DNA from: Escherichia coli
GTDB lineage: Bacteria; Pseudomonadota; Gammaproteobacteria; Enterobacterales; Enterobacteriaceae
Reading direction: 5' to 3' (one strand)
NCBI RefSeq assembly: GCF_009931435.1
Contig: NZ_CP043414.1
Length of the DNA: 64,000 bases
Shown: in pieces, positions 8,471 to 21,610 of the stretch
How positions within the stretch are numbered: position 1 is the stretch's first letter
How the letters are laid out: each line of letters opens with the position of its first letter
The notes under the pieces: model-generated
Databases searched by the model: none
Seen by the model: the letters and a program-made list of their open reading frames with translations, nothing else
What the model was told of the DNA's origin: nothing
Made by a program: the position numbers and the translations under genes

Positions 8471-9820
8471 TTAGATAGCCCAGCCGCCCGCATAGAAGGT
8501 CACCAGCGCCACGGCGATAACGACCGTACCGATGTTCAACTTGCGCCATTCGCCGGAAACCAGACGACCAATCACCAGAGTCGCGAAGCCGATCATGATG
8601 CCTGTTACGATGTTACAGGTCAGCACGATGAATACCGCCGTAACCAGACCCGCCATCGCATCAACAAAATCAGCAAAGTCGATTTTCGCCACGTTGCTCA
8701 GCATCAGCAGGCCAACGTACATCAGCGCTGGAGCCGTTGCGTACCCAGGAACGAGGTAAGAGAGTGGAGAGAGGAACAGAATCAGCAGGAACAACACGCC
8801 AACGGTGATAGCCGTCAGACCGGTTTTTCCGCCCGCCGCTGTACCCGCCGCAGACTCGATGTATACCGCTGCCGGTGCTGCCCCCACCAGACCAGAGAAA
8901 ACACTGCTCATGGAGTCGGTGGTCAGTGCTTTCCCGCCGTCGATAATTTGCCCGTCTTTATCCAGCAGGTTTGCCTGGCCCGCGACGGCCCGGATGGTTC
9001 CGGTGGCATCGAAAACAGCAGTCATCACCAGTGCCAGCACGCTCGGCAGAACCACAGGGTTCAGCGCGCCCATAATGTCCAGGCTGCCAATCAGTGAATT
9101 GCCGTTTTCATCGCTCAATGAAGGCATGGCGAAAACGCCAGAGAAGTGGACGTTAGGATCGAAGATCAAACCGACAATTGAGATACCGATAATGGTCAGC
9201 AGAATGCCACCAGGGACTTTCAGTTTTTCCAGGCCGATGATCACCGCCAGACCTACCAGTGACATAATCACCGGGAAGGTCGCGAAATCACCCAGCGCAA
9301 CGGGCAGACCATCAAGCGGGTTTTTAATCACCAGACCGACACCATTAGCGGCAATGAGCAGCAGGAAAAGACCGATACCGATCCCCGTGCCGTGCGCCAC
9401 ACCGTGCGGCAAGTTGCGCAAAATCCAGCTACGAATACCCGTGGCAGAAATTATCGTAAACAGCACACCCATCAGGAACACGGCACCCAGCGCGACAGGT
9501 ACGCTAATATGTTGCCCCAGCACCAGACTGAATGCGGTAAACGCCGTCAGGGAGATGGCGCAACCAATCGCCAACGGCAGATTAGCCCACAGACCCATCA
9601 CGATAGAACCGAGTCCGGCAACCAGACAGGTCGCAACGAAAACTGCCGCAGGCGGGAAGCCCGCTTTACCCAACATGCCTGGAACGACGATAACCGAGTA
9701 GACCATCGCCAGAAACGTTGTTAACCCGGCAACCACTTCCTGACGGACAGTGCTTCCACGTTGTGAAATTTTAAACCAGGCGTCGAGTGAACCGCCGGTA
9801 CGCGCTGATGGCGTAGACAT
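8471..9820 (-). CDS. ghxP: Guanine/hypoxanthine permease (NCS2/AzgA-like), 449 aa
   Basis: 449-aa membrane protein [50 protein letters not shown]...; synteny (K-12 yjcD/ghxP). Confidence 0.9.
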
Positions 9821-12828: not shown

Positions 12829-13257
12829 TGCTATCAATTTCCTGCCTGTTTATACCCGGTCATTGCAAGGCGAGAACCCTGGTTATCGACGTCTTTAGAT
12901 AAATCTTACGGTATAAATAGCACTTTTGCCTGATTTGAAATTGATACCTTTTTAATCGTCACCTGAATAAAAATAATTCATTGATATTCAAAATTAATTT
13001 TCTACAGGAATACAGAGGCGGCGGGAAGATATACCCTTAATGCCCCTGAAAAACCACATAATCTGTACAGCAATAAAAGTCACGTCCTAATATGGCTAAC
13101 AAACAATCAATTGTGATATAGTTCACAAAATTAATGAAACAAAAAGAGTGTTTCATTTTTGTGTTCTGCAAGCCCCGCGATAGCCAGAGTGTACCACGCC
13201 TCCCGTGAACAACGCCGCGCTGTCCAGGGCATCGGCTCTTTTCAGAGGAATTGTTTG

Positions 13258-13594: not shown

Positions 13595-14956
13595 CTACAG
13601 TTTGATTGTAATCTGAGTTCCCACAACCCAGGCGTCGTCGATTTCACTCACCCCACCGGGATCAATCAGCAACTGCACATTGGGTCGCAATGTTAACCAC
13701 GGCGTCACCACAAAACTGTAATGCAATTCTGCCGCATACTCAGCGTCTCTTACTGGCGTCCAGGCGGGATTATCATAATCATCAAGACCCTTTTTATCAT
13801 TGAGCAATTGCGCCCGTCTGGCTACTTTACTGTTTTCGTGCATTTTGCTGACGCCAAAGCCAATGTAATCCTGCCCCCGACCGGAAAATGGCCCTTTATA
13901 AATAGCGCCAATTTGCGTCTGGTAATCCATTGTCGCAGTATCCCGATCATTCATCGCCAGATGCCAGAACAGAGAAAGGCCACCACGAGGAGAACGGGGA
14001 TCAGCAGTCACTTGCTGGAGTAAGTAGATCCAGCCACCGTAACGCCCATCGTGAGTCGCCGGGGGACGTTGGCTCGTAACGTAGTCATCGCCTTCTGCAT
14101 CCTTCAGGACGTCACTGGCTTTTGCTGTGTTATACCAGGCTCCTACTTTCCAGGCACCCGGAAGTTTATTCGCACCCAGCGTTGGTGTATACCCAAATTC
14201 CATAAGGTACATATTTCCTAATCTTCCAGTATTATCCAACTGGAAACTGCCGCTTCGCGTCGCATAATTTGGGTTATACATAAACGCGCCGGTCTGCAAA
14301 TAAACTTGCGGTGTAAAATTATAACGTAACCTGGCCCCCCACTGACCAATCGGTGTGTTATACCAGACTCCCGCACCATGACCTGCCAACGAACCACAGA
14401 GGGAAAGGTTCTGGAAATAACAACCATTGTTATCGAAGTCTTCGCCAACCGGCATTAATCCTAACTTTAAATCAATCGTTTTTGCATACCATGATTGACG
14501 ATACCAGAATTGCGCGGCATGCCAGGTTTGACCCCGGCCATAGTTACTGTTTACCGTCGAGCCAATCACTGGGGCTCGAGGATCCTGAATTCTGTCGCTG
14601 GTAAGATCGCGGCCGTTACGATCGATAACAGAGACTTTAAACTCTCCATCCGTGATACCCGCAATTTTTTGCAGATCAAAATCGGCACCGATAATATACT
14701 GGTCGCTATATCGCGCCGTCCGATCCTTGTTATAACCGCCTGAAATATTCGATGTCACCATCGAGCCATATTCCAGAGTAAAATCATATCCTTTGTTTTT
14801 TAACTCACTACGCACTCCATTCCAATCTCCAGCCATATATTTTCCGGTTGAGGAAAAAGGTAACTCATTGGCTAACGAACCAAATGGGAACATCAGTATC
14901 ATCAGGAAAATATAATTTTCCCGTATAGAATGATCCATATTATTTATCCTTTGCAA
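13595..14956 (-). CDS. Accessory island gene 1: outer-membrane porin-like protein (OprB/carbohydrate-selective or OprD-like; family uncertain), 453 aa or shorter
   Basis: Signal-peptide-like N-terminus (…FLMILMFPFGSLA|NELP…); mature part rich in Gly/Tyr/Asn/aromatic residues with alternating hydrophobicity typical of beta-barrel porins; N-terminal GDWNGVRSELKNKGYDF…NISGG resembles the OprB-family start as I recall it. True start may be the internal MDHS. Confidence 0.6.
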   Translation of the reverse strand: MQRINNMDHSIRENYIFLMILMFPFGSLANELPFSSTGKYMAGDWNGVRSELKNKGYDFTLEYGSMVTSNISGGYNKDRTARYSDQYIIGADFDLQKIAGITDGEFKVSVIDRNGRDLTSDRIQDPRAPVIGSTVNSNYGRGQTWHAAQFWYRQSWYAKTIDLKLGLMPVGEDFDNNGCYFQNLSLCGSLAGHGAGVWYNTPIGQWGARLRYNFTPQVYLQTGAFMYNPNYATRSGSFQLDNTGRLGNMYLMEFGYTPTLGANKLPGAWKVGAWYNTAKASDVLKDAEGDDYVTSQRPPATHDGRYGGWIYLLQQVTADPRSPRGGLSLFWHLAMNDRDTATMDYQTQIGAIYKGPFSGRGQDYIGFGVSKMHENSKVARRAQLLNDKKGLDDYDNPAWTPVRDAEYAAELHYSFVVTPWLTLRPNVQLLIDPGGVSEIDDAWVVGTQITIKL

Positions 14957-15060: not shown

Positions 15061-16527
15061 CTACGGCGAAAGCTCTTCCAGTGATTTTCCCTTCGTTTCA
15101 ATAGCGAACAAATAGGTAACCAGGCCGCCTATTAACGCGATGACTGCGAACACAATAAAAACAAAGCGGATCCCAAAACCAGAAACAATGAATCCCACCA
15201 GCAACGGTCCAACGGAAGAGCCAGCCCGCAACCAGGCACTGGAAAATGCCGTTCCAATCGCTCTCAGGCGAGTGGGGTATAGCTCTGCAGAGTAGAGATA
15301 AAGAGAGAAGGCAATGGTCTGGAGAATGGCATACGTCATACTACCGAAAATAAGGATTTCAATGGCAGATTTGGCTCCGAAAATACAAAGAGTCACTAAC
15401 GGGATAATGGCCAGTAAATAAGCCCAGGTATACCAGCATTTTCTTCCAATACGATCGATAAGCAGTGCACAAATTACCGACGCAAAAACTCCACAGGAGG
15501 AAGTAATCCAACCATAAGCCAGACTGGTTTCCAGTGGTAAGTGAAAAAGCGTTTTATACATGGTAGGAAACCAGGTGATCATACCATTGTTCACCGTATA
15601 AACGGTCAGCCATAGTCCCCATAACATAAACGTGCGTGATTTATAGATGCCGGAAAATAGTTCTTTTACGCCACCTGCAGGTTCCTTTTGCACAACTGCA
15701 GGATTAATCACCGGCTCAGGTAATTCCATTCCTCGCTGCAGCGCTTCTTTCTCAAACGCCGCAACGACTTTCTCAGCCTGAACATGGCGACCTTTCGCTG
15801 TTAACCAGCGTGGAGACTCAGGCATTAACCAGCGTAACGGAACCGTCAATGCCGAAGGGATAAGACCTATCAAAAACATCACTTTCCAGCCGTAAAGCGG
15901 AACAAGAAAATAGCCTACAAGACCAGCAAACATCATACCGATCGGAAAAATCACCTCGTAGAGTAAAAAAAAGCGGCCACGTTTTTTTGCTCCGATAAAT
16001 TCATTGATATAAGCGCTGGCAACCGGAACTTCTGCCCCTATTCCTAATCCTTGCAGGAAACGGATAACCAGAATCGACCATCCATTCCAGGCAAACAGGC
16101 AAGCGGCATCCATCGCGACGAACATCACAATGGTGATACGCAACACGCCAATGCGGCCAATTTTTTCTGCCAGAGAGCCAAAAAAGAGTGCGCCGCAGAG
16201 CTGCCCAACATAGCTTGCGGCAATGATCAGCCCGATGAAGGTTGGTGTTAATCCCCATTCCTGAGTGAGTTGCGGTAGCGCAAAAGCTATCGCGATAATG
16301 GTGTAAGCATCAAAGAATGTCGATAAACCCACCACTACACGAATAGCTAAAAGACGCCTGGTGACAGGGAGTCGTTCGAGCCTGGCAAGCAGCGTTGCGG
16401 GATCGCCTTCCCGCGGACTGGCAATAATACTTTCAGAAGTAATAACCTGAGTTGACATAGCGATATCCTGTTGATTGATTCGCAAGACAACGAACTGCGC
16501 CAAACCCAGCGGCTGGCAGCTATTCAC
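15061..16527 (-). CDS. Accessory island gene 2: MFS transporter (sugar-porter / aromatic-acid:H+ symporter-like), about 465-488 aa
   Basis: 12-TM profile; MFS signature motifs (…GRIGVLRITI…, …LMPESPRWL…). Track start is GTG at 16527; MSTQVITSES at about 16458 is an alternative start. Confidence 0.8.
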   Translation of the reverse strand: MNSCQPLGLAQFVVLRINQQDIAMSTQVITSESIIASPREGDPATLLARLERLPVTRRLLAIRVVVGLSTFFDAYTIIAIAFALPQLTQEWGLTPTFIGLIIAASYVGQLCGALFFGSLAEKIGRIGVLRITIVMFVAMDAACLFAWNGWSILVIRFLQGLGIGAEVPVASAYINEFIGAKKRGRFFLLYEVIFPIGMMFAGLVGYFLVPLYGWKVMFLIGLIPSALTVPLRWLMPESPRWLTAKGRHVQAEKVVAAFEKEALQRGMELPEPVINPAVVQKEPAGGVKELFSGIYKSRTFMLWGLWLTVYTVNNGMITWFPTMYKTLFHLPLETSLAYGWITSSCGVFASVICALLIDRIGRKCWYTWAYLLAIIPLVTLCIFGAKSAIEILIFGSMTYAILQTIAFSLYLYSAELYPTRLRAIGTAFSSAWLRAGSSVGPLLVGFIVSGFGIRFVFIVFAVIALIGGLVTYLFAIETKGKSLEELSP

Positions 16528-16565: not shown

Positions 16566-16593
16566 ATGAAAACGTTTCTGCAATCGTTTTCAT
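16566..16593. promoter_or_regulatory. Operator-like inverted repeat atgaaaacg-N10-cgttttcat in the divergent MFS / regulator promoter region
   Basis: Perfect 9-bp arms with 10-bp spacer; embedded tgcaatcgttttca fits the LacI/cre-type pattern TGnAAnCGnTTnCA; followed by tataat at 16595-16600. Second copy at 18068-18093. Confidence 0.45.
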
Positions 16594-16885
16594 GTATAAT
16601 TATCGTCATTAGTTTCCCGGGGGATGTCAATTCGACTCAGCGAATATTTGTTAATCAGTTCACATTCCGGATATCTGCTTAGAGAAAAAATGTGATGTTG
16701 TTCTTAAAGCCATCAAGAAAGCTCGCGACAAAGATCGGATACGTACACGCTCAGGACGTAGTAAACATCCAACATTTCTTTGTACATACAAAAAATTGCC
16801 GTACCATTTTACAAGGCCAATCATTACGCACTGGCCTTTTGAATGACGGGACCTTTCAGGTAATTAATACATACGGGAGTCAGCT

Positions 16886-17914
16886 ATGAGCCTGGAAAGC
16901 GAAGAAAAAGACCAAACAGAAAAAAAGCTGATCACCATGCGTGACGTGGCGAATGCTGCCGGGGTGAGTATTTCTACCGTTTCGCGTATCCTGGATGAAA
17001 GATTACCGCCATCTAAAAGCGCTTCTGCCGAAAAAGTACGCCAGGTCGCACGCGAATTGGGCTATCGTCGGGATTATGTTGCCTCCAGTCTCCGTCGCGG
17101 CGGCACCGGGACACTTGGTGTATTAGTTCCACGCCTGACTGATGCAGTTACTGCAATGTTGTTTGAAGAAATCGCTAAAGCAGCGTCGCATCGTGGTTAC
17201 TTCGCAGTGGTCGCGACTTGTGGAGACGATCCCCAGCAAGAGCGAGAATCTGTAGAATCACTTCTCGACAGGCGGGTCGACGGCTTGATTATGTCAACCT
17301 GTCGCCTCGGCGATCCCCTACCGCAAACTTTGCGTGAAAGGGATATTCCCCATGTGCTCGCCCTGCGTACTGATGGTGTTAGCCCATCATCCATCGGCGA
17401 TGATGAACTGGGTGGTTACCTTGCTACTCGCCATCTTATTGATTTAGGACATAAAAACATCGGTTTGATAGGTGGCCCGGATTTTGCCTCAAATGCGCTT
17501 AATCGCCGTAAAGGTTTTGAAAAGGCAATGCGCGAAGCCGGACTAACTATACAGCCGCAATGGTGCTGTTCATCAGACTTTAACATCCAGTCGGGAGAAG
17601 AAGCAGGGATGAAACTCCTCAGAACGACTCCTGCTCCAACCGCTATTTTTGCGGTAAATGACGAAATAGCGATTGGTGTGGTTGCTGCCGCTCACCATTT
17701 GGGGATAACAATCGGCCAAGAGTTGTCGTTAGTGGGTTATAACGACATTCCTCTGGTCAGCCGACTTCCTGTGGCGCTCACTTCCGTAAGAACGCCGCTA
17801 GAGCATATCGCCAGTAATGCTGTGGACATGTTGATTAATGCCGACAGTGGCCGCTCTTTGCGTACAACCATACCGACTTTAATACCAAGAAAATCAACGA
17901 GTTCACCCAAGTAA
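16886..17914 (+). CDS. Accessory island gene 3: LacI-family transcriptional regulator, about 325-342 aa
   Basis: N-terminal HTH (…ITMRDVANAAGVSISTVSRILDE…) followed by a periplasmic-binding-protein-like sugar-binding domain; alternative start at MRDVA (about 16937). Confidence 0.85.
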   Translation: MSLESEEKDQTEKKLITMRDVANAAGVSISTVSRILDERLPPSKSASAEKVRQVARELGYRRDYVASSLRRGGTGTLGVLVPRLTDAVTAMLFEEIAKAASHRGYFAVVATCGDDPQQERESVESLLDRRVDGLIMSTCRLGDPLPQTLRERDIPHVLALRTDGVSPSSIGDDELGGYLATRHLIDLGHKNIGLIGGPDFASNALNRRKGFEKAMREAGLTIQPQWCCSSDFNIQSGEEAGMKLLRTTPAPTAIFAVNDEIAIGVVAAAHHLGITIGQELSLVGYNDIPLVSRLPVALTSVRTPLEHIASNAVDMLINADSGRSLRTTIPTLIPRKSTSSPK

Positions 17915-17923
17915 AGCCTGTCT

Positions 17924-17962
17924 TTCATTTGCTGCAAAACCCGGGGTTTTGCAGCAAATGAA
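17924..17962. other. 39-bp near-perfect palindrome just downstream of the regulator gene
   Basis: ttcatttgctgcaaaaccc-g-gggttttgcagcaaatgaa (19-bp arms); no U-tract follows, so either an unusual terminator or a protein-binding site. Confidence 0.4.
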
Positions 17963-18067
17963 GAACATTAAAATTCTTATATTCCTTCCCTGATTTTGTG
18001 ATCCCTGCTGCATTTTTCAACAACTGTTGATTGACAACCTCATTCATCAGGTTCAAATTCAATCTTG

Positions 18068-18093
18068 TGAAAACGATTGCAAGAACGTTTTCA
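18068..18093. promoter_or_regulatory. Operator-like inverted repeat tgaaaacg-N10-cgttttca upstream of the DapA-like/FAH/Dcu genes
   Basis: Perfect 8-bp arms, 10-bp spacer, about 60-80 bp upstream of the ATG at 18151; first arm plus spacer (tgaaaacgattgca) matches TGnAAnCGnTTnCA exactly. Same architecture as 16566-16593. Confidence 0.45.
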
Positions 18094-18150
18094 TTTCGTT
18101 TCTTGCATTGTCCACATAATAAAAAAGACTAAATTATTAAGGAGATAGTC

Positions 18151-19080
18151 ATGATCAATATAGATCTCAGAGGTTTGACCCCGGCACCGGTTACCCCTTT
18201 CAATCGTGATGGTAGTATTGATTTTGATGCTATCCAGCGTCTGGGAAGCTGGCTGGGTAGTATTGACGGCGTTAAAGGGTTAGTTGTACTTGGTCATGCT
18301 GGTGAAGGTACTTTCCTGACACAAGATGAACAGGCCGCTGTGATCCGTGCTTTCGTAAAATCCGTAGATGGCAAGCTGCCTATCATTGCCGGTATCACCG
18401 GTGAAGGGACTGACGTCGCTGCTAAAGAAGCCAAACGTGCCGTGGAAGCTGGTGCTTCAGCAGGCCTGTTATATCCTTCTCATGGATGGTTGCGTTTCGG
18501 CTACCAGGACGGCGCACCACAAGATCGCTACCGCGTTGTCTATGAAGAAAGCGGCCTGCCCTTGATCCTGTTTCAGTATCCTGATGTGACTAAAGCAACC
18601 TATAATCTGCAAACACTGCTGGATATTTCCGCACAACCCGGTGTTTTTGCTATGAAAAATGGTGTACGCAATATGCGTCGTTGGGATACAGAGATCCCGG
18701 TTATCCGCCGCGAGCGTCCGGAATTACAGATCCTCAGTTGCCATGATGAATATCTGGTACACACTGCTTTTGACGTAGATGGTTTCCTTGTCGGCTATGG
18801 CAATATTGCGCCAGAACCGCTCATCGAGATGATCAAAGCAGGTAAAGCTGGCGATTATAAAAAAGCACGCGCGATACATGACCGTCTGCTGCCAGTAACG
18901 AAGTGCGTATATCATCGCGGTTCCCATATGGAAGGAACCGTCGCCCTGAAACACGCGCTGGTTGCTCGCGGTATTCTCGAACATGCTACTGTTCGTTCAC
19001 CGCTATTACCGCTGGAGCATGGTGCCGAAGAAGAAATTCATGCTGCTATGCGTGCAGCTGACCTGCCGCGCGTTAAATAA
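18151..19080 (+). CDS. Accessory island gene 4: DapA/NAL-family class I aldolase or dehydratase (dihydrodipicolinate synthase-like), 309 aa
   Basis: Family-typical layout: …TPAPVTPFNRDGSIDFDAIQRLGSWL…GLVVLGHAGEGTFLTQDEQ…, Tyr in …LFQYPDVT…, candidate Schiff-base Lys in …VFAMKNGV…. Good ribosome-binding site (aaggag) upstream. Confidence 0.8.
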   Translation: MINIDLRGLTPAPVTPFNRDGSIDFDAIQRLGSWLGSIDGVKGLVVLGHAGEGTFLTQDEQAAVIRAFVKSVDGKLPIIAGITGEGTDVAAKEAKRAVEAGASAGLLYPSHGWLRFGYQDGAPQDRYRVVYEESGLPLILFQYPDVTKATYNLQTLLDISAQPGVFAMKNGVRNMRRWDTEIPVIRRERPELQILSCHDEYLVHTAFDVDGFLVGYGNIAPEPLIEMIKAGKAGDYKKARAIHDRLLPVTKCVYHRGSHMEGTVALKHALVARGILEHATVRSPLLPLEHGAEEEIHAAMRAADLPRVK

Positions 19081-19351
19081 CTCCGGCAACAGAAAAGAAA
19101 GCAGTATTCTAAATCACTACTCCTGATGGTTATTGCTTTCTTTCACTTAATGCCACATTAACGACGACAGCCACCTTTACATACAATCATAAGGTGGCTC
19201 ATTCTCTTCATCAGCCTATTGTCGCGCCGGGCTATTTTGAATAACTCAGATGTAATAATGATGAGATTGTTAGAATCCAGGCCATAGTACAACGTCTCAG
19301 AAGCCAGAAGGTAAGTAATGCCCTGATCATGGCATGAATTGAAGGAACATC

Positions 19352-20233
19352 ATGAAACTGCTCAGTTTTTCTGTAGATAACGAAGAAAAGTATGGTGCCA
19401 TCGTATCCGATGGAATTATTGACTTGCATAAATTATTTCCCGAACTTCCCGACCTGAAATCATACGTTGCCAGTCAACATTCATTAGACATCGCTTTGTT
19501 TGCAGGTAAAAAAGCCGATTACCATCAGGGCGAAGTGACTTTTCTGCCCGTAATTACTCGACCAAATAAAATCATCTGCGCAGGTATGAACTACCGGGAA
19601 AAATGTGCAGAATTTAATGAAAAAGGTGGCGATCCGACGCTATTTATCCGTTTTGCTGATACTCAGACGGGCCACCGTTGTGGGTTAATAAAACCGACCC
19701 TGAGTAATGAATTTGATTATGAAGGCGAACTGGCGGTAATTATAGGTCGCCAGGGTTCTCACATTCCTGCTGATGAAGCATTTAACTATATTGCCGGGTA
19801 TAGCTGTTATATGGATGGTTCCGTTCGTGACTGGCAGCACAGCTGGTTTACTGCCGGTAAAAATTGGCCTGCAACAGGTGGATTCGGGCCATGGATGGTT
19901 ACGCCAGATGAAATTCCTGACCCTCAAAATCTGAATATTATCACCCGTCTTAACGGCAAGGAAGTGCAGAATGATAATACACATAGCATGCTGCACTCTA
20001 TTAAGGATTTGATTGCCTATATCAGTACTTTCACCACCTTATCGCCCGGTGACGTGATATTAACAGGCTCTCCGGGTGGGGTCGGTAAAAAACGCTCTCC
20101 ACCGCTCTTCTTGTGGCCTGGTGATATTGTTGAAGTTGAGATTTCAAGAATTGGTTGCCTGATAAATCACATTATAAGCGACAACGAAGAGTATCCGGTC
20201 ACTTTACAATCAGAACTCGATAACGCCTGCTGA
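19352..20233 (+). CDS. Accessory island gene 5: fumarylacetoacetate hydrolase (FAH) family protein (hydratase/decarboxylase/hydrolase type), 293 aa
   Basis: FAH-fold core …FDYEGELAVIIGRQGSHIPADEAFNYIAGYSCYMDGSVRDWQ… and …GDVILTGSPGGVG…. Confidence 0.8.
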   Translation: MKLLSFSVDNEEKYGAIVSDGIIDLHKLFPELPDLKSYVASQHSLDIALFAGKKADYHQGEVTFLPVITRPNKIICAGMNYREKCAEFNEKGGDPTLFIRFADTQTGHRCGLIKPTLSNEFDYEGELAVIIGRQGSHIPADEAFNYIAGYSCYMDGSVRDWQHSWFTAGKNWPATGGFGPWMVTPDEIPDPQNLNIITRLNGKEVQNDNTHSMLHSIKDLIAYISTFTTLSPGDVILTGSPGGVGKKRSPPLFLWPGDIVEVEISRIGCLINHIISDNEEYPVTLQSELDNAC

Positions 20234-20320: not shown

Positions 20321-21610
20321 GTGATGATCATGCTGCAATTTATTATCGTTTTATTTTTCCTGTTTTTAGGAATGCGTATTGGCGGCATTGGTGTCGGATT
20401 TGCTGGTGGGGCAGGTGTCATCGCCTTGTGCGCCCTTGGTGCAACACCCGGCGATTTACCGATGCTGGTGATCGTTTTTATTATGGTTGTCATCATTGCA
20501 ATTGCTGCAATGCAAGAAGCGGGTGGGATTGACTATCTGGTTGGTTTAACCGAAAAAATGCTTCGCCGCTACCCTCGCCTGCTGGTAATAACTGCACCTC
20601 TGTCTACATGGCTATTAACCATGATGGCCAGTACCGGTCAGGTGTCATTTGCCTGTATGCCGGTTATTGTGGGTGTCGCGAAGGAAAATCAACTTCGTCC
20701 CACCCGGGCGTTGGCGCTTTCGGTTACCGCTTCATTGTTAGGTATTGTTGCCTCGCCTATCTCTGCCGCCGTTATTTTCTTTTCAGGCATCCTGGAAAAA
20801 AATCACCAGGGATGGGGATATTTGCAACTCATTGCCGTTTCTATACCGGCTACTTTATTAGCGTTGATTTGTACTTCGCTTTTTTACCTGTTCTGGGACA
20901 AACTTCGCCAGAATGATCAATTACCCGTACATATGGCTGTAACGAAAAAATCTCTGTCTGCGCCTGTGGTACAGGGAGCTCGTCGCTCAGTACTAATATT
21001 TATTTTTGGCCTAGTTGTAGTACTTTTTTACGCCCTCATTGCCAGTCCGAAAACAGGCGTTATCATACATCCCGTTTTAAATAGTGGACAGGTCCGTATT
21101 TCAGTAATGATGGCTGTAGCACTCGCCATTGTTATGTTTTGCCGGGTAAATGTGAATAACATTCCTGCGACATCAGTTTTTAAAACAGGGATGACGTCAT
21201 GCATCTGTATTTTAGGTGTCGCCTGGCTCGGTTCTACATTCATGGATAGTAACCAGGTGTGGTTTCAAAGCATGATTTCCGGATATTTATTAGATTCACC
21301 ATTGTTGCTGGCAATTATTATTATGCTGGCGTCATGTTTTCTATATTCTCAGGCGGCCTCCACCAAAATACTTTTTCCTATTGCATTAAGTATGGGTATC
21401 GCCCCTGCCACTCTGGTCGCCTGCTTTCCAGCAACGGCTTCTCTTTTTATTTTACCTAACTACCCCACATTATTAGCCGCCGTGACTCTTGATGATACGG
21501 GGTCAACGAAATTAGGAAATCGAATAATCGATCATCCGTTTATTGTTCCTGGTTTAATGGCAACCGTGTTATCGATACTCTTCGCCGCGGGATTCGCATT
21601 GTTTATTTAA
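20321..21610 (+). CDS. Accessory island gene 6: Dcu-family (DcuA/DcuB-like) C4-dicarboxylate transporter, about 429 aa
   Basis: Close resemblance along the whole length to E. coli DcuA as recalled (…LGMRIGGIGVGFAGGAGV…, …AMQEAGGIDYLV…, …TKLGNRIIDHPFIVPG…); about 10-12 TM segments. Confidence 0.85.
   Translation: MMIMLQFIIVLFFLFLGMRIGGIGVGFAGGAGVIALCALGATPGDLPMLVIVFIMVVIIAIAAMQEAGGIDYLVGLTEKMLRRYPRLLVITAPLSTWLLTMMASTGQVSFACMPVIVGVAKENQLRPTRALALSVTASLLGIVASPISAAVIFFSGILEKNHQGWGYLQLIAVSIPATLLALICTSLFYLFWDKLRQNDQLPVHMAVTKKSLSAPVVQGARRSVLIFIFGLVVVLFYALIASPKTGVIIHPVLNSGQVRISVMMAVALAIVMFCRVNVNNIPATSVFKTGMTSCICILGVAWLGSTFMDSNQVWFQSMISGYLLDSPLLLAIIIMLASCFLYSQAASTKILFPIALSMGIAPATLVACFPATASLFILPNYPTLLAAVTLDDTGSTKLGNRIIDHPFIVPGLMATVLSILFAAGFALFI

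What the first reader, a model, noticed from the sequence alone, without database searches (positions are those of the whole stretch)
16566..18093. Two copies of a TGAAAACG-N10-CGTTTTCA inverted repeat mark both promoter regions of the island
The 26-28 bp element atgaaaacg-tttctgcaat-cgttttcat (16566-16593) lies in the divergent spacer between the MFS/porin operon and the LacI-family regulator gene, abutting a tataat hexamer. A second copy, tgaaaacg-attgcaagaa-cgttttca (18068-18093), lies 60-80 bp upstream of the DapA-like gene. In each, one arm plus spacer forms a 14-mer (tgcaatcgttttca; tgaaaacgattgca) matching the LacI/CcpA-type operator pattern TGnAAnCGnTTnCA. Recurrence at exactly the two expected regulatory positions argues these are operators of the island-encoded regulator and that it controls both operons and possibly itself.
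Basis: seen in the sequence. Interest (0 to 1): 0.6.

Follow-up and report, generated by a model that had tools for sequence, protein, structure and literature searches.

The report
Overlapping double operators of a LacI-type repressor
The two 26-bp elements are almost certainly the binding sites of the sugar-acid island's own LacI-family repressor, each made of two overlapping operators exactly 12 bp apart just downstream of a lac-like, CRP-type promoter; this is an ordinary kind of switch with a little-understood overlapping-site layout.

Summary
TGAAAACG-N10-CGTTTTCA occurs exactly twice in the window (16567-16592 and 18068-18093), against 0 expected by chance.

Read towards the downstream gene, the two copies are 24/26 identical and point the same way. 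One points to the MFS/porin genes, the other to the DapA-like gene.

The "inverted repeat with a 10-bp spacer" is really two overlapping LacI-type 14-mers whose central CGs lie exactly 12 bp apart.

In 78 of 80 orthologous regulator loci, from Enterobacteria to Rhizobium and Actinobacteria, the same 12-bp-phased array of 2 or 3 units lies next to the regulator and DapA-like gene pair. In nearly all loci aligned it follows a TTGAC -35 element.

In 10 enteric species both E. coli-type promoters share one conserved layout: a CRP-like site at about -61.5, TTGACA, a 17-bp spacer, a weak -10, then the array from about +3 to +29.

Across 5,426 E. coli genomes, near-complete copies occur only inside this island.

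The best reading is a lac-like, CRP-assisted, repressor-controlled pair of promoters. Autoregulation in E. coli is not supported.

Overlapping LacI-family sites were already described in 2014, with the mechanism unresolved. This is therefore a new member of a known kind. No binding experiment exists.

The parts
16567..16592 (-). Operator array 1. Read on the minus strand it is TGAAAACGATTGCAGAAACGTTTTCA, two overlapping 14-mers with CG centres 12 bp apart, pointing towards the MFS/porin genes.
   Evidence: It is conserved in 9-10 enteric species while the flanks diverge.
16579..16592 (-). Promoter-proximal full 14-bp palindrome of array 1 (TGAAAACGATTGCA).
   Evidence: (22.7 bits).
16567..16580 (-). 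Distal overlapping unit of array 1 (CAGAAACGTTTTCA). It has a good outer half-site, a conserved AACGTT core and a degenerate inner half-site.
18068..18093 (+). Operator array 2 (TGAAAACGATTGCAAGAACGTTTTCA), pointing towards the DapA-like gene.
18068..18081 (+). Promoter-proximal full 14-bp palindrome of array 2 (TGAAAACGATTGCA), identical to that of array 1.
18080..18093 (+). Distal overlapping unit of array 2 (CAAGAACGTTTTCA).
16649..16664 (-). CRP-like site TGTGAACTGATTAACA of the MFS promoter. Its centre is at about -61.5 from the inferred start.
   Evidence: 1 mismatch to TGTGA-N6-TCACA. (TGTGA invariant in 9 species).
16625..16630 (-). -35 hexamer TTGACA of the MFS/porin promoter.
   Evidence: (TTGAC invariant).
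16602..16607 (-). Weak -10 hexamer GACGAT, 17 bp after the -35. The inferred start is near 16595, which puts the array at about +4 to +29.
   Evidence: (A2, A5 and T6 of the hexamer invariant). The start site is inferred.
17997..18012 (+). CRP-like site TGTGATCCCTGCTGCA of the DapA promoter. The left half is perfect and the right half weak. Its centre is at about -61.5.
   Evidence: (TTTGTGA invariant in 10 species).
18031..18036 (+). -35 hexamer TTGACA of the DapA-like gene promoter.
   Evidence: (TTGAC invariant).
18054..18059 (+). -10 hexamer CAAATT, 17 bp after the -35. The inferred start is near 18066, which puts the array at about +3 to +28.
   Evidence: (A at hexamer position 2 and T at position 6 invariant). 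The start site is inferred.
16886..17914 (+). LacI-family regulator gene (342 aa), the presumed cognate repressor.
16780..16807 (+). Candidate promoter of the regulator gene (TTGTAC-16-TACCAT). It has no operator nearby.
   Evidence: (CGTA and TAnnAT conserved in the Klebsiella/E. coli clade). Weak evidence.
17919..17967 (+). 19-bp-stem hairpin after the regulator gene, a terminator that separates it from the DapA promoter.
   Evidence: Every enteric ortholog checked has a strong, non-homologous hairpin at this position.
15061..16458 (-). MFS transporter gene (aromatic-acid/sugar-porter type), first gene behind array 1.
13595..14938 (-). OprB-family carbohydrate porin gene, downstream of the MFS gene.
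18151..19080 (+). DHDPS/DapA-family gene (predicted lyase), first gene behind array 2. It is the invariable partner of the regulator across phyla.
19352..20233 (+). FAH-family hydrolase gene. It is probably co-transcribed or read through from the DapA promoter, and no operator of its own was found.
20324..21610 (+). Dcu-family C4-dicarboxylate transporter gene.

Best explanation
Each 26-bp element is a composite operator for the LacI-family repressor encoded at 16886-17914.

Anatomy. Each element consists of two overlapping 14-bp LacI-type pseudo-palindromes that share 2 bp. Their central CpG steps are exactly 12 bp apart. The promoter-proximal unit is a full palindrome (TGAAAACG|ATTGCA). The distal unit keeps the AACGTT core and a good outer half-site (TGAAAAC), but its inner half-site is degenerate.

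Placement. Both arrays have the same orientation relative to transcription. Each begins 8-9 bp after the -10 hexamer of a lac-like promoter with this layout: a CRP-type site centred near -61.5, TTGACA, a 17-bp spacer, then a weak -10. The arrays cover roughly +3 to +29.

Function. Without inducer the repressor occupies the array and blocks open-complex formation or promoter escape at both promoters. These are P(MFS-porin) and P(DapA-like, probably reading on into FAH-Dcu). An unknown carbohydrate-like acid, or its 2-keto-3-deoxy intermediate, releases the repressor. cAMP-CRP then supplies activation.

What is shown. Sequence, conservation, placement, co-occurrence with the regulator, and restriction to the island.

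What is inferred. Transcription starts, repression, CRP dependence, the inducer, and whether two dimers sit on the array at once. I favour two, anchored by their hinge helices at both CpGs and by the outer headpieces. That sub-claim I hold at only about 0.4-0.5.
For: - Chance is excluded.
- The regulator is a standard LacI/PurR/RbsR-type protein with an HTH and an 'ASSL' hinge.
- In 10 other enteric species both arrays are conserved block-wise while the flanks diverge.
- In 80 orthologous loci from gamma-, beta- and alpha-Proteobacteria and Actinobacteria the regulator is always next to the DapA-like gene. 78 of the 80 carry the array. The two exceptions are truncated contigs.
- Anchoring on the best 14-mer in 55 non-redundant loci, CG occurs at exactly +/-12 in 71 of 110 flanks, against at most 2 at +/-11 or +/-13.
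- 58 of 60 strong sites have at least one flanking CG at +/-12. In that flanking unit the unselected positions A17 and T22 are 97-99% conserved.
- Distances between PWM hits are 12 bp in 25 of 29 cases.
- In 49 of the 54 non-redundant DapA-upstream regions a TTGAC lies 22-47 bp upstream of the first array CG, most often at 22, 34-35 or 43 bp, so the array overlaps the -10/start region across phyla.
- The same CRP/-35/-10/array geometry is found at both E. coli promoters.
- Among 5,426 E. coli genomes the near-complete 26-mer occurs only in the 12 island genomes (2 copies each) and in 3 genomes with a divergent copy of the same island, there again upstream of the DapA-like gene.
- The recognition-helix residue after 'GVS' tracks the half-site type. 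K goes with GGGAAC; I/V/T go with TGCAAAC or TGAAAAC.
Against: - There is no experimental binding, start-site or expression data for any member of this group. None was found in the searchable literature.
- In canonical LacI/PurR-DNA complexes about 7 bp per half-site are contacted. Two dimers 12 bp apart would therefore compete for the inner half-sites. Ravcheev et al. judged such arrangements hard to reconcile with the known structures.
- The right half of the CRP-like site at the DapA promoter is poor, with 3 mismatches.
- The residue/half-site correlation may reflect only two clades.
- A hairpin in the DapA-FAH gap leaves it open whether FAH and Dcu are under the array's control.
- The BLAST scan of E. 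coli genomes detects only near-complete copies, not isolated 14-mers.
Confidence: 0.8

Rival explanations
1. Only the promoter-proximal 14-bp palindrome is the operator. It binds one dimer in the canonical way. The extra CGTTTTCA arm is a non-functional or merely auxiliary relic, for example an alternative binding register that is never occupied together with the first.
For: The proximal 14-mer is the only full match to the LacI pattern. The inner half-site of the distal unit carries almost no information, 0.07-0.25 bits. Canonical structures argue against two dimers 12 bp apart.
Against: The second CG at exactly 12 bp, with its AWCGWT core, is kept in 58 of 60 non-redundant strong sites across several phyla. 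A third unit is added in several lineages. If a strong central site were always occupied alone, selection on the weaker overlapping neighbours would be hard to explain.
Confidence: 0.12
2. The inverted repeat acts as RNA. Because the arrays lie at about +3 to +29, the transcripts begin with an 8-9-bp stem and 10-nt loop that stabilises the mRNA or modulates translation.
For: The MFS leader folds with this hairpin in its minimum-energy structure. The arms pair in 84% of cells across 32 distinct arrays, and both-side changes exceed the shuffles.
Against: Changes within the enterics break pairs without compensation, for example TGATAACG...CGATTTCA. 9-11 of 32 sequences are unpaired at three of the eight pairs. 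The covariation seen is equally expected from a shared half-site preference. The DapA leader prefers a different fold. Three-unit arrays and arrays overlapping the -10 in other phyla do not fit a leader hairpin. There is no Rfam match.
Confidence: 0.04
3. In E. coli the sites are mainly bound by host LacI-family paralogues with similar boxes (GalR/GalS, PurR), not by the island regulator.
For: The gal OE operator TGTAAACGATTCCA differs from the proximal 14-mer at only 2 of 14 positions. From my own knowledge, the PurR box (GCAAACGTTTNC) resembles TGCAATCGTTTTCA.
Against: The motif travels with the regulator gene across phyla, in hosts that lack GalR or PurR. It is absent from E. coli genomes without the island. 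The two mismatches to gal OE lie at symmetry-related half-site positions 3 and 12. From my own knowledge, these are typical specificity positions.
Confidence: 0.04

Closest known systems
Overlapping tandem LacI-family sites described by comparative genomics (Ravcheev et al. 2014, PMC4052901), with E. coli GntR at gntKU as the tested example
   Same: Two LacI-type palindromes overlap within one promoter region. The arrangement is conserved within an orthologous group. Groups of three sites also occur. The binding mode is unresolved. I verified the gntK upstream sequence in K-12: TGTTACCGATAACAGTTACCCGTAACA, two 14-mers.
   Different: The GntR sites are offset by 13 bp with a 1-bp overlap. Here the offset is always exactly 12 bp with a 2-bp overlap. 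Here the arrangement is near-obligatory, in 58 of 60 strong sites, and spans Proteobacteria and Actinobacteria.
RegPrecise regulog 'RL3595' (Rhizobiales and Rhodobacterales; 'sugar utilization', no effector)
   Same: It is probably the same orthologous group. The R. leguminosarum 3841 ortholog found here is CAK09084.1 / Q1MD93. It is the only LacI-family gene in its 13-kb neighbourhood. The regulog lists 4 regulons with 8 sites, that is, two sites per genome.
   Different: The identity rests on accession arithmetic and gene position, not on a direct look-up. The published group does not include Enterobacteria, Halomonadaceae or Actinobacteria, and no function is given.
The lac promoter-operator (CRP at -61.5, LacI O1 centred at +11)
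   Same: A class-I-type CRP site at about -61.5, a weak -10, and a LacI-family operator centred at about +10 downstream of the start. The lac positions are from my own knowledge.
   Different: There are no distant auxiliary operators and the regulator has no tetramerisation tail, as it ends at residue 342. In their place a second, overlapping unit is centred at about +22. Two promoters share the design.
gal OE operator of GalR/GalS
   Same: 12 of 14 positions are identical to the proximal unit, and it has the same CG-centred 14-mer pattern.
   Different: It has a different cognate regulator, it differs at half-site positions 3 and 12, and it works with a second operator about 113 bp away by looping (my own knowledge), not by overlap.

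Membership tests
LacI/GalR-family operator | A LacI-family regulator with an HTH and a hinge helix is encoded next to the site. | tested here: met
   The 342-aa protein matches RbsR/CytR/PurR/CcpA models at E 1e-45 to 1e-60 and PDB PurR/RbsR/CcpA. The HTH 'GVSISTVSRIL' and hinge 'YVASSLRRG' are conserved.
LacI/GalR-family operator | An even palindrome of 14-20 bp with a central CG. | tested here: met
   TGAAAACG|ATTGCA matches TGnAAnCGnTTnCA with 0 mismatches at both sites. The CG is invariant in all orthologous arrays.
LacI/GalR-family operator | [quoted passage not shown] | tested here: met
   58-83 bp before the DapA-like ATG and 109-134 bp before the MFS ATG. It lies directly after conserved -35/-10 elements.
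LacI/GalR-family operator | Conserved upstream of orthologous genes (phylogenetic footprint) and co-occurring with the regulator. | tested here: met
   In E. coli it is restricted to island genomes.
LacI/GalR-family operator | Direct, ligand-sensitive binding of the regulator (EMSA or footprint). | not testable with these tools
Overlapping tandem LacI-TF sites (Ravcheev 2014 class; GntR-gntKU type) | Two sites of the same motif overlap at a fixed offset of about 13 bp, conserved within the orthologous group. | tested here: met
   A fixed offset is conserved across 55-60 non-redundant loci. The offset is 12 bp here, against 13 bp at gntK.
RegPrecise RL3595 regulog | The regulator is the ortholog of R. 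leguminosarum RL3595. | tested here: inconclusive
   The ortholog CAK09084.1 sits at 3.779 Mb of the 3841 chromosome. The regulog has two sites per genome. The locus tag could not be looked up, and the protein sequences in the stored supplement were cut.
Class I CRP-dependent promoter | A CRP consensus site centred at -61.5 from the transcription start. | tested here: inconclusive
   TGTGA-N6-TAACA has 1 mismatch and TGTGA-N6-CTGCA has 3. In both, TGTGA is invariant in 9-10 species, lies 34 bp before TTGACA, and is centred at -61.5 from a start inferred 7 nt after the -10. No start site or CRP data exist.
Structured 5'-leader RNA | Base pairs are maintained by compensatory changes, or there is a match to a described RNA family. 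| tested here: not met
   There are uncompensated mismatches within the enterics, and 9-11 of 32 sequences are unpaired at three pairs. No Rfam hit at E<=1.

The most novel reading that the evidence does not exclude
This orthologous group of LacI-family repressors may require a phased array of two or three overlapping operators at exactly 12-bp register. It would occupy them simultaneously, with one dimer per CpG. Hinge helices would kink the DNA every 12 bp, and the inner headpieces would be shared or disengaged, giving a side-by-side 'fan' of dimers on bent DNA. This binding mode has not been seen in any LacI-family structure. It would explain the unexplained roughly 13-bp peak of overlapping sites reported for the whole family in 2014. 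The E. coli island would offer a simple native system, with two promoters and one regulator, in which to solve it.
Probability: 0.35. Interest if true: 0.6.

Novelty: new member of a known kind. Interest (0 to 1): 0.35.

Why it matters
- It gives a concrete regulatory model for an uncharacterised, horizontally mobile six-gene catabolic island: one repressor, two lac-like CRP-assisted promoters, and an unknown carbohydrate-acid inducer. The island is rare in E. coli, in 15 of 5,426 complete genomes.
- It ties the island to a regulator/DapA-like/transporter module that is spread from Actinobacteria to Proteobacteria. No function for this module is published.
- The strictly 12-bp-phased overlapping operators form an unusually clean and widely conserved example of a layout that comparative genomics flagged as structurally unexplained for the LacI family.
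- The locus would therefore be a convenient test case for that open, if specialised, question.
- As a regulatory element it is otherwise ordinary.

Tried and rejected
- **Loose chain search.** A search for CG-centred 14-mers with at least 6/10 pattern matches was too noisy in GC-rich loci. I replaced it with anchor and PWM analyses.
- **+ strand TATAAT.** I considered the TATAAT abutting site 1 as the regulator's promoter, and GATAAT on the minus strand as the MFS -10. Both were rejected because they are not conserved. The conserved -10 is GACGAT, 17 bp after TTGACA.
- **Extra operators.** I looked for further operators upstream of the FAH, Dcu or porin genes and found none.
- **Relic gene.** I looked for a relic of the second MFS gene in the DapA-FAH gap and found none.
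- **Literature.** Searches for the motif, the gene combination and candidate locus tags returned nothing relevant. The only hit for GGGAACGTTCCC was a Streptomyces scabiei sugar-transporter paper, judged unrelated from its title and abstract and not opened.
- **RL3595.** I tried to confirm the identity from the supplement's protein sequences, but the stored file is cut.
- **Substrate.** I could not identify it. The NCBIfam hits of the DapA-like and FAH proteins are all below the curated cut-offs. The closest solved DapA-family structures are only distant.
- **RNA-element reading.** Rejected.
Full report
**1. The observation**

The window carries ATGAAAACG-TTTCTGCAAT-CGTTTTCAT at 16566-16593 and TGAAAACG-ATTGCAAGAA-CGTTTTCA at 18068-18093.
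- The pattern TGAAAACG-N8-12-CGTTTTCA occurs twice in 64 kb, against 0.00 in 100 dinucleotide-preserving shuffles.
- With a PWM built from enteric sites they score 22.7 bits. The next hit in the window scores 16.9 and the maximum over 200 shuffles is 19.4.

**2. Context**

The region is an E. coli chromosomal island between yjcB and ssb. Its genes are:
- an OprB-family porin (13595-14938, minus strand);
- an MFS transporter (15061-16458, minus strand);
- a LacI-family regulator (16886-17914, plus strand);
- a DHDPS/DapA-family protein (18151-19080);
- an FAH-family protein (19352-20233);
- a Dcu-family transporter (20324-21610).

Only 12 of 5,426 complete E. coli genomes carry the island at 99% identity or more. 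Three more carry a divergent, IS-flanked copy elsewhere.

A 19-bp-stem hairpin follows the regulator gene (17919-17967). Every enteric ortholog checked has a strong but non-homologous hairpin there. The regulator gene is therefore its own transcription unit.

**3. Anatomy of the element**

Read towards the downstream gene, the two copies are:
- TGAAAACGATTGCAGAAACGTTTTCA (site 1, minus strand, towards the MFS gene);
- TGAAAACGATTGCAAGAACGTTTTCA (site 2, plus strand, towards the DapA-like gene).

They are 24/26 identical and have the same orientation relative to transcription.

The element is not simply an 8-bp inverted repeat with a 10-bp spacer. It is two 14-bp LacI-type pseudo-palindromes that share 2 bp, with central CGs exactly 12 bp apart.
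- The promoter-proximal unit, TGAAAACG|ATTGCA, is a full match and is identical at both sites.
- The distal unit, CA(G/A)(A/G)AACG|TTTTCA, keeps the AACGTT core and a good outer half-site but has a degenerate inner half-site.

**4. Related loci**

A scan of one genome per species returned 80 loci encoding relatives of the regulator at 53-85% identity. They come from Enterobacteria, Halomonadaceae, Marinobacter, a beta-proteobacterium, many alpha-Proteobacteria and many Actinobacteria.

In 78 of the 80 loci the regulator gene lies next to the DapA-like gene (59-94% identity). The MFS transporter is often present too. In Halomonas, Microbacterium and Celerinatantimonas an NRAMP-like transporter takes its place. 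Serratia and Dickeya add a chemoreceptor gene.

In 10 enteric species both 26-bp arrays are conserved as blocks while the flanks diverge.

In 78 of the 80 loci a PWM finds the array next to the regulator/DapA-like pair. The two exceptions are contigs that end beside the regulator gene.

The 12-bp register is universal. Examples are:
- Halomonas: TGTTAT-CG-TTCCTGGGAA-CG-ATTGCA;
- Streptomyces: TAGGAT-CG-TTCTCGGGAA-CG-TTCCCA.

Three CGs at 12-bp steps occur in Microbacterium, Marinobacter and many rhizobia, for example TAGGAT-CG-TTTACGGGAA-CG-TTCCCACTAT-CG-TTCTCG.

Quantitatively:
- Anchoring on the best 14-mer in 55 non-redundant loci, CG occurs at exactly +/-12 in 71 of 110 flanks, against at most 2 at +/-11 or +/-13.
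- 58 of 60 non-redundant strong sites have at least one such neighbour, and 17 have two.
- In the neighbouring unit the positions that were not used for selection (A17, T22) are 97-99% conserved. The two inner half-site positions carry 0.07-0.25 bits.
- Distances between independent PWM hits are 12 bp in 25 of 29 cases.

**5. Promoters**

Alignments of the two enteric promoter regions show the same three conserved blocks upstream of each array.
- A CRP-type site comes first. For the MFS promoter it is TGTGAACTGATTAACA at 16649-16664 (minus strand), with 1 mismatch to the consensus. For the DapA promoter it is TGTGATCCCTGCTGCA at 17997-18012. TGTGA is invariant in all species in both.
- 34 bp after the TGTGA comes an invariant TTGAC(A), at 16630-16625 and at 18031-18036.
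- After a 17-bp spacer comes a weak -10 whose A2 and T6 are invariant: GACGAT at 16607-16602 and CAAATT at 18054-18059.

Assume a start 7 nt after each -10, near 16595 and 18066. The CRP-type sites are then both centred at -61.5. The arrays cover about +4 to +29 and +3 to +28, and the proximal CG lies at about +10. These start positions are inferred.

This is the architecture of the lac promoter (own knowledge), with an overlapping second unit in place of distant auxiliary operators.

The placement holds beyond the enterics. In 49 of the 54 non-redundant DapA-upstream regions, a TTGAC lies 22-47 bp upstream of the first array CG. The commonest distances are 22, 34-35 and 43 bp. The array therefore overlaps the -10/start region in Actinobacteria and alpha-Proteobacteria as well.

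**6. Specificity to the island regulator**

A blastn search of 28 Gb of complete E. coli genomes with site 1 finds near-complete copies only in island-bearing genomes.
- The 12 island genomes have two copies each.
- The 3 genomes with the divergent island have one copy each, again upstream of the DapA-like gene.

This scan cannot see isolated 14-mers.

The recognition-helix residue after 'GVS' tracks the half-site type. K goes with GGGAAC in alpha-Proteobacteria and several Actinobacteria. I, V or T goes with TGCAAAC or TGAAAAC in gamma- and beta-Proteobacteria and Microbacterium. This may reflect only two clades.

**7. Autoregulation**

In the Klebsiella/E. coli clade the conserved promoter-like element of the regulator gene is TTGTAC-16-TACCAT at 16780-16807. 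It lies about 200 bp from array 1.

The + strand TATAAT that abuts the array is not conserved.

Autoregulation in E. coli is therefore not supported. It remains plausible where the regulator and the DapA-like gene diverge from a 120-170-bp spacer that holds the array.

**8. Mechanism**

The best-supported reading is classical repression. The repressor sits on the initial transcribed region of both promoters, is released by an unknown inducer, and CRP provides activation.

How a LacI-family protein uses units 12 bp apart is open. In canonical complexes the inner half-sites would be contested. Ravcheev et al. (PMC4052901) noted exactly this problem for overlapping sites.

The conservation pattern fits two or three dimers bound at once. 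Outer half-sites are good, AWCGWT cores are conserved at every CpG, and one inner half-site is uninformative. Each dimer would be anchored by its hinge helices and an outer headpiece (inference).

The persistence of weaker flanking units beside a perfect central palindrome also argues against mutually exclusive occupancy (inference). I hold this sub-claim at 0.4-0.5.

**9. Rivals**

- Single operator plus relic: disfavoured by the cross-phylum conservation of the second unit.
- Leader-RNA hairpin: disfavoured by uncompensated mismatches within the enterics, by three-unit arrays, and by the absence of an Rfam hit. The arm covariation seen is expected from a shared half-site preference.
- Host paralogues: gal OE differs from the proximal unit at only 2 of 14 positions, so cross-talk with GalR/GalS is conceivable. 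However, the motif travels with the island regulator.

**10. What is known**

Overlapping LacI-family sites at about 13 bp, upstream of 110 operons and including triples, were reported in 2014 with the mechanism unresolved. At E. coli gntK the two GntR 14-mers are offset by 13 bp. Here the offset is always 12 bp.

The RegPrecise regulog RL3595 covers Rhizobiales and Rhodobacterales, lists two sites per genome, and is annotated 'sugar utilization' with no effector. It is probably the same orthologous group, but I could not verify the locus tag.

No paper on any ortholog, on the island or on the pathway was found.

The substrate remains unknown. The OprB porin and the LacI-type sensor point to a carbohydrate-like acid. 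The DapA-family and FAH-family enzymes point to a 2-keto-3-deoxy acid intermediate (inference).

**11. Verdict**

This is a real, non-random regulatory element.

It is a new member of a known kind: a local LacI-family regulon with overlapping tandem operators. Interest is moderate. The value lies mainly in providing a clean, widely conserved and experimentally convenient case of the unexplained overlapping-operator layout.

Noticed in passing
window 13112-13127: A perfect CRP-type palindrome, TGTGATATAGTTCACA, lies about 30 bp upstream of the yjcB ORF. It is outside the island and is the only 0-mismatch match in the window.
   Followed up: no
window 17919-17967: A 19-bp-stem hairpin lies directly after the regulator gene. 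Its arms contain TGCAAAAC, which resembles the operator half-site. All enteric orthologs checked have a strong but unrelated hairpin at this position, so it is most likely a terminator.
   Followed up: partly
window 19081-19351: The 271-bp gap between the DapA-like and FAH genes contains a hairpin (GCCACCTT...AAGGTGGC, about 19170-19198). It has no operator and no relic of the second MFS gene that Raoultella, K. indica and Citrobacter carry at this position. Whether FAH and Dcu are co-transcribed with the DapA-like gene is open.
   Followed up: partly
window 18094-18110: After array 2 comes TTTCGTTTCTTGCATTG, with a third CG at 18097-98. It lies 11 bp after the second CG in E. coli and 12 bp after it in the K. 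oxytoca group. It is possibly a degenerate third unit, and it is not conserved in Raoultella, K. indica or Pantoea.
   Followed up: partly
L016, L026, L032 (next to the DapA-like gene); L012 7052-8686 and L019 7051-9009: The transporter partner is swapped between taxa. It is MFS in enterics and alpha-Proteobacteria, and a divergent NRAMP-like transporter in Halomonas, Microbacterium and Celerinatantimonas. Serratia and Dickeya insert a methyl-accepting chemotaxis protein between the regulator and FAH genes. In L032 a second array lies at 9386-9411.
   Followed up: partly
L082 (E. coli MIN11, NZ_CP069666.1 3526800-3540825): A divergent copy of the same six-gene island lies at another chromosomal site, flanked by IS3 and IS30 remnants. 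This shows that the island is mobile.
   Followed up: partly
L085 186-199 (E. coli K-12 galE upstream): The gal OE operator TGTAAACGATTCCA is 12/14 identical to the proximal operator unit TGAAAACGATTGCA. Cross-recognition by GalR/GalS in E. coli hosts is therefore conceivable.
   Followed up: partly
regulator proteins of L002-L081, residues about 36-45 of the E. coli protein: All orthologs share an invariant 'LDERLP.S.S' loop after the recognition helix. By my manual count it is one residue longer than the corresponding loop of LacI and PurR. They also share an unusual hinge context, 'YRRD..ASSLRRG'. Whether this relates to the overlapping-site binding is unknown.
   Followed up: no
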